Assembly: GCA_964016885.1 (NCBI GenBank)
Contig: CAXHJY010000835.1
Span: 1 to 30,182, forward strand
From: Eledone cirrhosa
Taxonomy: Eukaryota
Length of the DNA stretch: 30,182 bases
Direction: 5' to 3'
The notes below the pieces were generated by a model. That model did not search any database. It was not told the origin of the DNA and saw only the letters and a list, made by a program, of their open reading frames with translations. This document shows, in pieces, positions 11,352 to 29,031 of this stretch. Position numbers and translations under genes: made by a program. Numbering within the stretch: the first letter of the stretch is position 1; each line of letters begins with the position of its first letter.

Positions 11352-11641
11352 GCAGAGGTTATATTTAATTTGTTGGGATTCAACAAGCTTAAACATTTTA
11401 TAACAAATATAAAGCACTCAACAGCTTAGTGGAGTAAATATACAATATATTAACAAATGGAAACTATATTTATAAAACCATATTTATTTTATTATACATA
11501 TTTCAAGGGCCACCTTGAAAACAAATCTGTATTGTATTTTATCTGATGAAAGCGCACCATAATTTGCCTTGGTGGCCCTTGAAATATGTATAATAAAATA
11601 AATATGGTTTTATAAACATAGTTTCCATTTGTTAATATATT
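11352..11641. mobile_element. Fold-back Penelope-like mini-element, 'family B' copy 2
   Basis: Homologous to 9026-9454. Arms 11444-11514 and 11571-11641, tail 11352-11443, flanked by (TA)n. Confidence 0.85.
11535..11600 (+). ncRNA. Type I minimal hammerhead ribozyme motif
   Basis: TATTTTAT-CTGATGA-AAGCGCACCA..TGGTGGCCCTT-GAA-ATATGTAT-A-ATAAAATA: perfect 8-bp stem I, intact core. Confidence 0.85.
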
Positions 11642-11663
11642 ATATATATATATATATATATAT

Positions 11664-11852
11664 GAAAATGTTTAACCCCGACGTCAGAGCTCAAGCCGTT
11701 TCGACGGCTATTTCTGGACAGAAATAGCCGTCGAAACGGCTTGAGCTCTGACGTCGGGGTTAAACATTTTCCTATTACCCACTCTACTACCCTAAGTATT
11801 GAGTACTCTGGTGCGTTATGGTCCATCTGATTCCTTACCACACTTCCTTCGT

Positions 11853-17406: not shown

Positions 17407-17439
<33 letters not shown>

Positions 17440-17444
<5 letters not shown>

Positions 17445-17607
17445 ATCAAAAGATGGTTAAAGGAGTTCCATATATTTTATAAAATATATGGAACTCCTTT
17501 AACCATCTTTTGATCTTATATTATGCATACTCCAGTCCCACAAACTGTAGAGTGCTTCTTATCCGATATCTGCATTGCTTTATTGTACTACAATAAAACT
17601 CACCTCC

Positions 17608-17611
<4 letters not shown>
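17440..17611. mobile_element. Ultra-short fold-back insertion of the same family as the RT-encoding Penelope-like element ('family E')
   Basis: Perfect palindrome ~17440-17520 centred on 17479/17480. The arm equals 25528-25568 with one mismatch. Tail 17521-17611; (TA)n flanks. Confidence 0.85.
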
Positions 17612-17686
<75 letters not shown>

Positions 17687-18006: not shown

Positions 18007-18185
18007 ACTGCTCCGAGTTTGCTGGTCTTGTGCTGTCCGAGTTTGCTGCTCCGAGTTTGCTGGTCTTGTGCTGTCCGAGTTTGCTGGTCTTGTGCTGTCC
18101 GAGTTTACTGGTCTTGTGCTGTCCGAGTTTGCTGGTCTTGTGCTGTCCGAGTTTGCTGCTCCGAGTTTGCTGGTCTTATGCTGTC
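18007..18185. repeat. Minisatellite, 24-bp unit GCTGTCCGAGTTTGCTGGTCTTGT with 14-bp variants
   Basis: Direct reading. Confidence 0.92.
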
Positions 18186-20402: not shown

Positions 20403-20846
20403 TCAGGATTTGGGCACCATGGCCCATTCGAGAAGAGAATTACTGTTTGCGGAGACATATCCGGGTGTGGGTGGTTTGTCCGGGATTACTTGGAGGAATT
20501 TGTCCAAAGACTTCTTGAATTTTGTGTGGTCAGTTTCTGTTTTGATGTGTCCTGGTGTGATGTTGAAGAGAGCAGGGCCGATTGAGGTGAAATAATTGTG
20601 CCGTATTGTTGTTATGAGTTGCGATTTAGATTTTTGAATGGGACGGATAGCACGGGGCCCAAGCCTTGGGTGTATCTTGAAGGCGATGCCAACATCATTT
20701 GGGCAGTGATGATGGAACATTTTCCACATCATGCAGATAATATAACGCTCACGGCGACGTTGGAGTGAGTAAAGTTTCAGGTTTTCTAATCGACCCCAGT
20801 AGTCAAGGTCTGACATGCCATCTATCTTTTTCGTGATTGCCCTTTG
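20403..20846 (-). pseudogene. C-terminal part of a CR1-like LINE ORF2 (downstream of the RT core)
   Basis: QRAITKKIDGMSDLDYWGRLENLKLYSLQRRRERY...FKKSLDKFLQVIPDKP..PGY...SNSLL matches the QR..T..I.G...L.Y..RL..L.L.SL..RR pattern of CR1-group ORF2 ends. Confidence 0.85.
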
Positions 20847-21024
20847 ATTTATTTTGAATCTGTTGTTCAGATCGAGTTTTCAAAAATTGAACTGTACGTT
20901 TAGCAATGTCGTTCAGAGATGAAGCATGTATGTCTTCTGTTTGGGTAAGGCAATGCCATGTGTTTATTAGAATGTCGATTTCATTATCAGACCAGTTCTG
21001 TTTGGATTTTTGCTGGTTAGCCAT
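20847..21024 (-). pseudogene. N-terminal ORF1 stub with a Myb/SANT-like (trihelix) motif
   Basis: ATG at 21024; NWSDNEIDILINTW...RSEQQIQNK resembles the W(S/T)..E...LI..W...R(S/T)..Q...K pattern. Confidence 0.5.
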
Positions 21025-25481: not shown

Positions 25482-25530
<49 letters not shown>

Positions 25531-25562
25531 AGATCAAAAGATGGTTAAAGGAGTTCAATATA

Positions 25563-25629
25563 TTTTATTATGCGCATTTCAAAAACAAACATCATCAAAC
25601 AATAATATTTGTGTTTTCATCAGATAAAA
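25563..25629 (-). ncRNA. Type I minimal hammerhead ribozyme motif of the RT-encoding element's pseudo-LTR
   Basis: TTTTAT-CTGATGA-AAACACAAATATTATTG.TT.TGATGATGTTTGTTTTT-GAA-ATGCGCAT-A-ATAAAA: core intact, palindromic helix III. Confidence 0.88.
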
Positions 25630-26849
25630 CAGGAGAACATGATATGAAGGCTAAAAAAACACTTGTTGATAGTGCAGTTTTAAATCAACATATGAAAAGT
25701 GGTTTTAGATTGATGTGTGATATTGGGAAAAATATTTTATTTAGAGAGGGGGGGAGAGAAAAGGATGAAAAGGGAAGGAGATGAGAGGGAGAGATGGGTG
25801 ATAGAGAGAAAGAGATAGTTTTTATAACAGAGAGGAGATATATTTTATATAGAGGGGTTGAAAACCGTTGGAAGATACTGTATAAATTAAAAATTTTGAA
25901 AATTAACGAAGGGAGGATATGTGCGAGGAAAAAATATATTATATTTAGGGAGGGGTGGGGGTGGAAAGGATGAAAAAAAGGGGAGGAGATGAGAGTGAAG
26001 GTGGAAAGGGAGAGATGGGTGATAGAGAGAAAGAGATAGTTTTTATAACTGAGAAAAAGATATAATGTTTTAATATAGAGAGGTTGGGAACCGTTGGAAG
26101 ATAATGTATAAATTAAAGGAATTTGAAAATTAACGAAGGGAAATTATGTATGGAGATAGAGAGAAAAAAAATAACGAAGGGAGATTATGTATGGAGATAG
26201 AGAGAAAAAAATAATAATTGTGGGTGAATATTCAAAAGGAGAAATGTAGGAATCTTAAAATTAGCAAAGAGAAAAAGTTTATGTATAGGATTTGAGAAAA
26301 ATTTATATTGAATTCATATGTATTAATAATGAGTTCGTTGATGGGGAGAAAAAAATAATAATAATAAATTAAGGATGAAATTGAGATTAAAAAGATTTAT
26401 GATAGAGAGAAAAAATAATAATGATTGCGGATGAATACTCAAAATGTCAAAAACAAATGTTATTGTTTTACGAAGAGATATAATGAGGGTGATGAGTAAA
26501 CGGGTATTATAGAGTGTATAATGCCCTTTAAAGTAAGGTAGATGGGTATATTTTAAAGAATATATGAGTATATATTAAAAAAAATATATATAATAATAAA
26601 TTAAGGATGAAATTGAGATTAAAAAGATTTATGATAGAGGGAAAAAAAAATAATAATGATTGCGGATGAATATTCAAAATGTCAAAAACAAATGTTATTG
26701 TTTTACGAGAAGATAGGATGAGGTAAATGAATAAACGAGTACTATAGAGTGTATAATGCCCTTTAAAGTAAGGTAGATGGGTATATTTTAAAGAGGTGTA
26801 TGTATATGTGCCTTTGAGAAAAGATTCTAAATTGATAAAGAATTGAATA

Positions 26850-27172
26850 TTAACTGTATACTTTGTGAAAAGTTCTATGGAATTTATGAAGGCAGATGGA
26901 AAACAAATCCGAGCGTCTATTTATTATGGATTCTAGGTTAGAGATAATGGTAAATTTTTCATTTAGGCAGAGATTACAGATTTTAGATAGAGAACTGTTC
27001 AAGTACGAGGATGCAGAAGAAATCTTTTTCCAAAAGATGTTATATTTAATGTTTTTGTCTTTTAAGGACCATATGAGTTCTGAGAGAGCAGTGTTAGTTC
27101 TTTTAAGTTTGTATTTGAAAGATGAATGATGATTATAGAGACGAGCTTTAAAAGAGGTGGAAGTGGAGCCAA
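26850..27172 (-). pseudogene. Inverted duplicate of the GIY-YIG 3' portion
   Basis: Protein GSTSTSFKARLYNHH...HKVYS is identical to the end of the + strand ORF. Confidence 0.92.
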
Positions 27173-29031
27173 GAACTCCGAGGATAAATCTCAAGGATCA
27201 CAAAAACAATTTTCGCACTGAACTACCTGTTAGATTAATCGCCCCCTCTAAATCTGATCTGGGGGTTGTTAGTAAAGCCATCTTGGATAGGATTATCCCA
27301 CAGGTTAGTTCTAATTGCTCTTCTTTAAACCTAAATTTATGGTTTGGTACTTCTGAAGTGATTGGCTGGTTCAACAAATTGGATAATAAAAACAAACTAA
27401 AATTTATTCAATTCGATATTGCCAGCTACTATTCCTCCATTTCGCCTTCACTTCTCAATAATGCTCTATCTTTCGCACTTAAATATTCTGACATCACCAC
27501 AGATGAACTTCACATCATCCTCACCGCACGTAAAACCATCCTAGAGTTCAACAACGAATATTGGACCAGAGCCGATACCTCTAACAACTTCGACATCACA
27601 ATGGGAGCATCCGATTCATCCCAATTGACTGATTTAATTGGTATATTCATTTTGAACTCTTTGAGTCGGAAAATTCCTCAACTTCGCGGTGGAATTTATC
27701 GTGACGATGGACTCTTTACTATCCTAAATTGCAATATAGTTAAACTTAATATTATTAAGAACAATATACGTAATCTCTTTAACCAACATAACCTAAAAAT
27801 TGAATTTGATAATAGTACCAAACTAGCTAATTTCTTGGATGTATCTCTTAATCTTGACACTGGCCTATATTACCCTTACCATAAAAACAATGAGAATCTT
27901 AATTATGTTAACTTTAAATCTAACCATCCTACCAATATCAAGAATGCTATAGTTAATAATATTGGAAATAGAATATCTAACATATCTTCTAATAAAAACA
28001 TCTTTGATGCTAACGCCAATTACTATAATAACGCACTTTCTAAAGCTGGCTATCCAGATAAAATCAAATATAATAAAGAAACAAATTCTAGGAAAACTTA
28101 CAGTAGAATATTTAATCATAACCATTCCAATAATTTTAATAAAAGACCTAGATACAAAAACATAATCTGGTATAATGCTCCTTTCTCCATCTCTATTAAT
28201 AACAATATTCCTAAATTATTTTTTAGTGCCTTAAATAAATGCTTCCCTCCCTCACATATCTATAGTAAAATATTTAACAAACACACCATTAAATTTTCGT
28301 ATTCTACATCCTCCAATATTTCCAACATCATTTCTAAACACAACAACAAAATATTAAATACTAAATCTCTTCCTTCCAATATTGAATCTCATAATAACAA
28401 TAATAGTACTCCTGACGTCATTGTAAACCCTAGGCTAACTTCTGTAAACCCAAATGCAACGTCAAACACAACTTCGCTAAATGTTCATAATCCAACTCTA
28501 AATCAAGAAACTATTATTCCTATTATTCCTATCGCAAACAACTTCTCCAATCCAATTCCTTCTATAGATAACACTAGATCACTCATTAATAATCTCTCTA
28601 ATTGCAACTGCCGCATTAAAAATAAATGTCCTCTCAACAACCATTGCCTCGATAAAAACTTAATTTATGAATGTAAAATTATAACTAGCACCAACTCCTT
28701 CACCTATTTTGGCTCCACTTCCACCTCTTTTAAAGCTCGTCTCTATAATCATCATTCATCTTTCAAATACAAACTTAAAAGAACTAACACTGCTCTCTCA
28801 GAACTCATATGGTCCTTAAAAGACAAAAACATTAAATATAACATCTTTTGGAAAAAGATTTCTTCTGCATCCTCGTACTTGAACAGTTCTCTATCTAAAA
28901 TCTGTAATCTCTGCCTAAATGAAAAATTTACCATTATCTCTAACCTAGAATCCATAATAAATAGACGCTCGGATTTGTTTTCCATCTGCCTTCATAAATT
29001 CCATAGAACTTTTCACAAAGTATACAGTTAA
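27173..29031 (+). CDS. Penelope-like reverse transcriptase plus C-terminal GIY-YIG endonuclease (N-terminus missing)
   Basis: RT motifs LKDHK..VRLI, FIQFDIASYYSSI, ITMGASDSSQL, IYRDDGL and NFLDV; thumb Y.K....YVNFKSNHP; Cys motif CNCRIKNKCPLNNHC; endonuclease LIY..YFGST...FKARLYNH and CNLCLNEK..INRR. No stop or frameshift over ~619 codons. The called GTG start at 27157 lies in the inverted arm. Confidence 0.93.

What the first reader, a model, noticed from the sequence alone, without database searches (positions are those of the whole stretch)
17440..17611. Palindrome centre coincides with the predicted ribozyme cleavage site of the RT-encoding element
Seen: the hammerhead at 25563-25629 (-) should cut GAAATGCGCATA^ATAAAATATATTGAACTCC. 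The perfect palindrome at 17440-17520 is centred on AT at 17479-17480, and from 17479 reads ATAAAATATATGGAACTCCTTTAACCATCTTTTGATC. It therefore starts at the first nucleotide after the cut, with one mismatch. Inference: this insertion is a cDNA of the 3' cleavage product that was copied to its ribozyme-made 5' end and then folded back, or was primed twice. That would be genomic evidence that the minimal hammerhead cuts in vivo and that the ~130-nt product is itself retrotransposed.
Basis: partly seen in the sequence, partly recalled or inferred. Interest (0 to 1): 0.85.

Follow-up and report, generated by a model that had tools for sequence, protein, structure and literature searches.

The report
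Ribozyme cut marks in retrotransposon copies
This short palindrome is a miniature copy of a Penelope-like jumping gene whose two halves both begin at the predicted cut site of the element's self-cleaving RNA; dozens of copies of a sister family stop at the same kind of site, which makes it likely that these ribozymes cut in the living animal, although only a small share of copies arise this way.

Summary
Observation confirmed: an 84-bp perfect palindrome (17438-17521) is centred on the first two bases after the predicted hammerhead cut of a Penelope-like element (family A, about 5,000 insertions). It is a miniature of the family's standard insertion: two outward-facing arms ending at fixed sites about +46 and +133. 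The '130-nt product' is wrong: +133 is shared by the family and runs on into the ORF. Family-wide junctions favour two primed cDNAs over fold-back. Most short copies stop not at the cut but 125 nt upstream (3,271 arms, 51% with an extra G, likely a copied cap). Cut-centred palindromes are 4 of 75 very short ones: a modest, test-dependent excess. A sister family in this window (B; U3-A8 core, stable stem III) gives a clear signal: 25 of 47 fetched very short palindromes have one arm starting exactly at the cut, the other at or just after it, joined by filler bases. So in vivo cleavage is likely real but a minor route (about 1.5% of short copies in B, under 0.5% in A). This copy likely came from cleaved RNA (about 0.65). 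The scan noted a similar, mildly favoured junction in another genome.

The parts
17438..17480 (-). Short arm of the mini insertion: element sequence from +1 (first base after the predicted cut) to the short end at about +43/+46
17479..17611 (+). Long arm: element sequence from +1 to the long end at +133; overlaps the short arm by the self-complementary dinucleotide at 17479-17480
   Evidence: 133 nt match to natural copy L028 with one subfamily difference
17525..17611 (+). The 'tail' (about 87 nt) between the two fixed ends; inferred to lie between two internal priming sites
   Evidence: 59 of 60 sampled palindromes have one short and one long end; in tandem copies it continues into the 5' UTR and ORF
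17411..17441 (.). (TA)n target, left side
17612..17672 (.). (TA)n target, right side
25563..25629 (-). Type I minimal hammerhead of family A; predicted cut between 25569 and 25568
   Evidence: cleavage not assayed
25683..25693 (-). Position -125: dominant 5' stop of family A arms, likely the capped transcription start
   Evidence: 1,676 arms with G and 1,595 with A/T directly before it, template base is C
25523..27172 (-). Inverted arm of the large family A copy (end of ORF, 3' UTR, hammerhead, short end in a TA repeat)
   Evidence: inverted repeats I1-I3
27139..29031 (+). 5'-truncated ORF: reverse transcriptase motifs, cysteine-rich linker, C-terminal GIY-YIG-type nuclease with CCHH residues
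   Evidence: Atlas look-alikes carry RVT_1, GIY-YIG and HTH_animal; direct Pfam scan empty
11664..11851 (+). Mini insertion of sister family B (53-bp arms, centre at 11716-11718 near that family's main stop, long tail to about 11851); this copy is not cut-centred but led to the family
11400..11640 (+). Palindromic insertion of a third hammerhead-bearing family (C)

Best explanation
The insertion is a miniature head-to-head copy of a Penelope-like retrotransposon, likely made when two reverse transcripts, primed from the two sides of a TA-repeat target at fixed internal RNA sites (about +46 and +133), both ran to the 5' end of an RNA that the hammerhead had likely cut. Shown: the two fixed ends, the TA target, the junction at +1, its recurrence at five loci, the -125 hot spot with an extra G, and the sharp +1 stop with filler bases in sister family B. 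Inferred: sense RNA is the template; each cDNA runs until the RNA ends (cap at -125 in most short copies, ribozyme cut in a few); the two cDNA 3' ends then join. In family A both cDNAs would end in a self-complementary AT and anneal directly; in family B they end in a C run and need filler. The cleaved RNA would be the long downstream transcript, not a 130-nt piece. These minis are by-products; cleavage is a minor route.
For: Twin priming: 59 of 60 sampled palindromes have one short and one long end; the short arm reaches at least 10 nt further upstream in 29, the long arm in 8, so neither can be a copy of the other. Run-off to RNA ends: 3,271 arms stop at -125, 51% with a G the template lacks; 30 of 30 fetched G cases are true ends; 13 of 13 junctions with both arms complete to -125 hold a G next to an arm. 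Family B: 25 of 30 fetched copies parse as a full hammerhead with a U3-A8 core and a 4-position stem III, a known active variant (PMC3088659, passage); 13 of 32 and 12 of 15 fetched very short palindromes have both arms at or after +1, one exactly at +1, with filler, against a 5% share of such cells by chance. Family A: +1 is the most enriched of 22 positions (12 against 6.3-6.6, p about 0.01); the exact junction occurs 3 times besides this copy against 0.37-1.0 expected, and the neighbouring class (long arm readable as ending at +1) 4 times against 0.33-0.38.
Against: In family A the sequence round the cut is all A and T, so the junction is equally a 2-nt microhomology; the strict test is not significant (5 against 2.7-3.7, p 0.18-0.45) and +6 and -2 score as high. 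Arms that appear to start at +1 (31 after removing 6 internal deletions) are not much more common than at +6 (26 of 28). Other junctions recur as often: centred in the stem III palindrome (5) or -15/+4 (6) among 60 fetched. The null model is simple and 7 of 39 junctions were dropped from it. The monomer fold of the family A ribozyme is unfavourable and not the predicted minimum, and minimal hammerheads cut poorly in vitro (PMC4209133, passages). In the lizard element uncleaved RNA was the main template and no reads ended at the cut (PMC11167929). No RNA or cleavage data here.
Confidence: 0.65

Rival explanations
1. Same twin-primed mini insertion, but from uncleaved (capped) RNA: one cDNA stopped early by chance and joined the other through the 2-nt AT microhomology that happens to sit at +1/+2.
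For: Junctions in family A follow microhomology (fitted weight about e^1.2 per base); perfect palindromes also occur at +9, +6, -2 and -9; stops at +6 are nearly as common as at +1; strict test not significant; uncleaved RNA dominates by at least 50 to 1.
Against: The exact junction and its neighbour class are 3-10 times above the model's expectation, while equivalent centres at -3 and +2 have none; it cannot explain family B, where filler bases leave no microhomology.
Confidence: 0.27
2. A longer palindromic insertion (arms to -125) lost its centre later by hairpin-driven deletion, or was collapsed in assembly.
For: 1,752 palindromes of the longer class exist; long palindromes are unstable (general knowledge); the window is a small unplaced contig.
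Against: The same junction stands at five loci with different flanks, three of them on large contigs; asymmetric junctions are the majority; deletion would not add filler at one fixed base in family B. Reads were not checked.
Confidence: 0.05
3. One reading: a discrete ~130-nt cleavage product was copied to its 5' end and the cDNA folded back on itself.
For: For this symmetric copy alone, fold-back of a cDNA primed at +133 followed by resolution at +46 fits the letters; self-priming was proposed for such palindromes (PMC3846280, passages).
Against: +133 is the family's general long end and continues into 5' UTR and ORF; in 29 of 59 palindromes the short arm holds sequence the long arm lacks; both arms can carry their own extra G with filler between.
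Confidence: 0.03

Closest known systems
Endonuclease-bearing Penelope-like elements with a cysteine-rich linker (Neptune/Nematis type; Craig et al. 2021, PMC8557442)
   Same: RT plus C-terminal GIY-YIG nuclease, linker and CCHH cysteines, pLTR with hammerhead, inverted 5'-truncated arm, tail on one end only, (TA)n target.
   Different: Tail about 87 nt rather than 30-40; clade not placed by a tree; the passages read call hammerhead function unclear and do not describe arms ending at the cut or at a capped start.
Poseidon element of Anolis in vitro (Frangieh et al. 2024, PMC11167929)
   Same: Two internal initiation sites that define the tail, cleavage and extension of both target strands, AT-rich targets, uncleaved RNA as main template.
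   Different: That study found no RNA-seq reads beginning or ending at the cut and no need for cleavage; here genomic junctions record a minority of cut templates and a likely cap.
Minimal, dimer-dependent Penelope hammerheads (Cervera and de la Pena 2014, PMC4209133)
   Same: Family A: type I, short stem I, long stem II, 1-bp stem III with palindromic loop.
   Different: Family B has a 4-bp stem III and a U3-A8 core; the paper states that in vivo evidence was lacking.
Self-priming on an antisense template (Arkhipova et al. 2013, PMC3846280)
   Same: Explains the same head-to-head palindromic junctions.
   Different: Stops at a sense-strand ribozyme cut and at a sense start with an extra G point to a sense template primed twice.
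LINE-1 twin priming and 5' extra G of full-length copies (recalled, not from a call)
   Same: Inversion made by two cDNAs joined by microhomology; cap copied as a G.
   Different: LINE-1 primes once at the poly(A) tail and once at a random internal site; here both sites are fixed, internal and 87 nt apart.

Membership tests
Penelope-like element (EN+) | Single ORF with RT and C-terminal GIY-YIG endonuclease | tested here: met
   RT motifs and nuclease-like C-terminus read in the ORF; Atlas neighbours at 0.95-0.97 carry RVT_1, GIY-YIG, HTH_animal in part of their members; direct Pfam and PDB scans gave nothing
Penelope-like element (EN+) | pLTR from partial tandem arrangement, preceding the ORF | tested here: met
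   Fetched copies continue past +133 into a 5' UTR and ORF start about 80 nt later
Penelope-like element (EN+) | Inverted 5'-truncated arm and tail on one end | tested here: met
   59 of 60; window inverted repeats
Penelope-like element (EN+) | RT phylogeny within the PLE clades | not tested
   No tree built; no named references fetched
Neptune/Nematis type | CX2-5CxxC linker plus CCHH motif, microsatellite targeting | tested here: inconclusive
   Cysteine cluster before the nuclease and later C/H residues seen, TA targets seen; clade not separated from Nematis
Type I hammerhead (family A) | CUGANGA, GAAA, UH core with stems I-III | tested here: met
   stem III is minimal
Type I hammerhead (family B) | Core and three stems; 3-8 pair kept | tested here: met
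   25 of 30 copies parse: stem I 5/5, stem II 6-7/8, stem III 3-4/4, U3-A8 core; one copy has a compensatory change in stem III
Type I hammerhead (A and B) | Self-cleavage at the predicted site | not testable with these tools
   Only the genomic footprint was tested
Non-LTR retrozyme | Head-to-tail tandem units each with a hammerhead | tested here: not met
   The insertion is head-to-head and holds no ribozyme core; definition from the 2026 preprint, part 1

The most novel reading that the evidence does not exclude
Penelope-like hammerheads cut their RNA in the germ line, and the element's reverse transcriptase copies the cleaved RNA twice from two fixed internal sites; the centres of head-to-head insertions are a fossil record of RNA 5' ends (cap with extra G, ribozyme cut with filler), which settles sense-template twin priming as the origin of inverted pLTRs and lets ribozyme activity in vivo be read from any genome.
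Probability: 0.7. Interest if true: 0.78.

Novelty: new variant of a known kind. Interest (0 to 1): 0.63.

Why it matters
Whether hammerheads in Penelope-like elements cut in vivo, and how the head-to-head repeats form, are open in the papers read. Junction sequences give a genome-only test of both: they mark the RNA's 5' ends to the base, show that uncleaved capped RNA is the usual template, and show that cleaved RNA is used in about 1-2% of short copies where the ribozyme has a stable stem III and less where it is minimal. The method transfers to any genome rich in these elements.

Tried and rejected
DNA similarity search of the own genome with 17440-17611 found nothing because common words are skipped; patterns were used instead. 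Rfam gave only miRNA-type hairpin matches below threshold. Pfam and PDB gave nothing for the ORF. Sequencing runs: no RNA holder listed, so no reads were laid. The contig ends at 30182, so the other end of the large element could not be read. A search for a canonical CUGANGA at a fixed distance in family B found none; the core proved to be the U3-A8 variant further upstream. CpG decay as the source of family B single-base fillers was rejected: by my reading 11 single A/T fillers stand against 0-1 possible parent forms among 82 listed loci, while the no-filler form is mostly unmutated (7 against 3). Family C was inconclusive: a few junctions at its cut among the first 50 of 103, but all-AT sequence. 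Free folding of the family B region did not give the hammerhead as minimum structure. 25 of the 75 palindromes with gap up to 40 were not listed; the gap 0-30 class was then listed in full, 14 of the gap 31-40 class remain unseen. A paper looked up for the cap-G precedent did not address it.

Full report
1. Observation. The window is a whole 30,182-base contig of a 3.0-Gb genome. At 17438-17521 lies a perfect palindrome with 42-bp arms centred between 17479 and 17480, between TA repeats. On the minus strand at 25629-25563 is a type I hammerhead motif whose predicted cut leaves 25568 as first base of the 3' product; 17479 onward matches it with one difference at +12, a subfamily variant carried by both arms. 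Positions below are counted from the cut (+1 = first base after it).

2. The element. The hammerhead lies in the inverted arm of a large insertion with a 630-codon, 5'-truncated ORF (27139-29031) showing RT motifs, a cysteine-rich linker and a GIY-YIG-type end. Pfam and PDB scans were empty; Atlas look-alikes carry RVT_1, GIY-YIG and HTH_animal in part of their members. A 27-mer downstream of the cut has 9,816 exact matches, mostly in outward-facing pairs. Of 60 sampled palindromes 59 have one arm ending near +46 and the other near +133, nearly always in TA repeats. In tandem copies +133 continues into a 5' UTR and the ORF start about 80 nt later. This is the known Penelope-like layout with a tail on one end (PMC8557442, passages), which in vitro work ties to two internal initiation sites (PMC11167929, parts 1-2 of 4 read). 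The finding is a miniature of it; no 130-nt product is needed.

3. Two cDNAs, not fold-back. Among the 59, the short arm reaches at least 10 nt further upstream in 29, the long arm in 8, and 22 are within 10 nt. A fold-back copy cannot hold sequence its parent lacks, so two separately primed cDNAs are inferred. For this one symmetric copy fold-back cannot be excluded from letters alone.

4. Where arms stop. Palindromes by gap between anchors: 75 (0-40), 273 (41-150), 659 (151-250), 1,752 (251-320). The last class is a stop at -125 (window 25693). Directly before it 1,676 arms have G and 1,595 have A or T, where the template has C; all 30 fetched G cases are true ends, not point changes, though by my reading about half of them could also take the G from the partner arm. 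All 13 junctions with both arms complete to -125 have a G beside an arm, two with G-AT-G symmetry. I infer a capped transcription start whose cap is copied (the precedent is recalled, not from a call; one search did not supply it). So the usual template for short copies is uncleaved sense RNA.

5. The cut site in family A. All 39 palindromes with gap 0-30 were listed; 4 are exactly cut-centred, a fifth has a mutated anchor, and their flanks differ. A model with microhomology and symmetry terms was fitted to 32 of the 39 (7 with insertions or mutations dropped). Without the window's copy, junctions readable as coming from an RNA that ends at +1 number 12 against 6.3-6.6 expected (p 0.009-0.013), the highest of 22 positions; under a strict reading 5 against 2.7-3.7 (p 0.18-0.45), no better than +6 or -2. 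The exact junction occurs 3 times against 0.37-1.0, the neighbouring class 4 times against 0.33-0.38, picked after seeing the data. Against: under one filter arms appearing to start at +1, +6 and -3 number 37, 28 and 18, or about 31, 26 and 12 after removing internal indels by eye; junctions in the stem III palindrome recur as often. Family A thus shows a weak excess, under 0.5% of its 2,759 short palindromes.

6. Sister family B. A second palindrome at 11664-11851 belongs to a larger family whose fetched copies include GIY-YIG-type frames upstream. Its hammerhead has a U3-A8 core instead of C3-G8 (4,183 matches to the 5' half); 25 of 30 fetched copies parse with stem I 5/5, stem II 6-7/8 and stem III 3-4/4. 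U3-A8 is a natural, active variant (PMC3088659, passage). Here the cut is followed by a G run, so arms ending at +1 have no AT microhomology. In one subfamily 13 of all 32 palindromes with gap up to 18, and in others 12 of the first 15 of 453, have both arms at or after +1, one exactly at +1, and filler between, mostly 1-6 bases rich in A/T. That is 25 of 38 filler-type junctions where 5% would be expected; many of the other 13 are point changes that break exact matching. Reading the 50 listed loci by eye gives 27 such and 5 more joined without filler. Extrapolated, 245-300 of 19,078 short palindromes (453 plus 18,625), about 1.5%. CpG decay does not account for the fillers (see Tried and rejected). 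A pause at RNA structure is not excluded by experiment, but both arms ending on the same base with added letters is what a template end gives. Most family B copies stop near -45, inside the stem II loop, so only read-through RNA would hold the whole ribozyme (inference).

7. Mechanism. The nuclease would cut both strands of a TA repeat; two RT copies start at fixed internal sites and run to the RNA's 5' end; the cDNA ends join by microhomology or filler. With capped RNA the arms reach -125; with cleaved RNA they end at +1, and in family A the terminal AT anneals directly, giving this palindrome. The stronger footprint in B fits its stable stem III; A has the minimal, dimer-type stem (PMC4209133, passages). 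I put the chance that this copy came from cleaved RNA at about 0.65 and in vivo cleavage in family B at about 0.85.

8. What is known. Four literature searches listed no paper whose text I read reports genomic junctions at the cut. The lizard study found no reads at the cut and uncleaved RNA as main substrate; the 2014 study notes the lack of in vivo evidence; an antisense self-priming model was proposed for the palindromes (PMC3846280, passages). I read only part 1 of 5 of the 2026 retrozyme preprint and no supplements of any paper, which may bear on novelty; subscription journals are not searched.

9. Verdict. Real feature, known element type, interpretation partly right. The value lies in the family-wide junction record, above all family B. 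Interest 0.63.

Noticed in passing
window 25693 (-) and about 3,300 genomic arms: Dominant stop at -125 with an extra G in 51% of cases, at an initiator-like sequence: likely a copied cap marking the pLTR transcription start.
   Followed up: partly
window 11664-11851; L382-L411: Family B: very abundant Penelope-like family (over 19,000 short palindromes) with a U3-A8 hammerhead core, 4-bp stem III and a main stop inside the stem II loop that looks like both an initiator and a splice acceptor.
   Followed up: partly
window 11400-11640: Family C: third hammerhead-bearing, TA-targeted family with the same short-end/long-end layout; cut-site test inconclusive.
   Followed up: partly
window 28380-28600: Asparagine/proline-rich stretch between RT and the cysteine linker, recalling the N-rich inserts described in rotifer Penelopes.
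   Followed up: no
L215, L218, L219, L235: Junctions with short tandem re-copies of the first bases after -125, suggesting repeated template jumps at the RNA 5' end.
   Followed up: no
window 20403-20879 (-): 158-codon frame that looks like the C-terminal fragment of a LINE-type RT; no Pfam match.
   Followed up: no
window 18010-18185: Short tandem array of a roughly 16-25-nt GC-richer unit.
   Followed up: no
L256, L341, L335, L153: Copies of families A, B and C often sit side by side or nested, because each leaves new TA repeats for the next.
   Followed up: no
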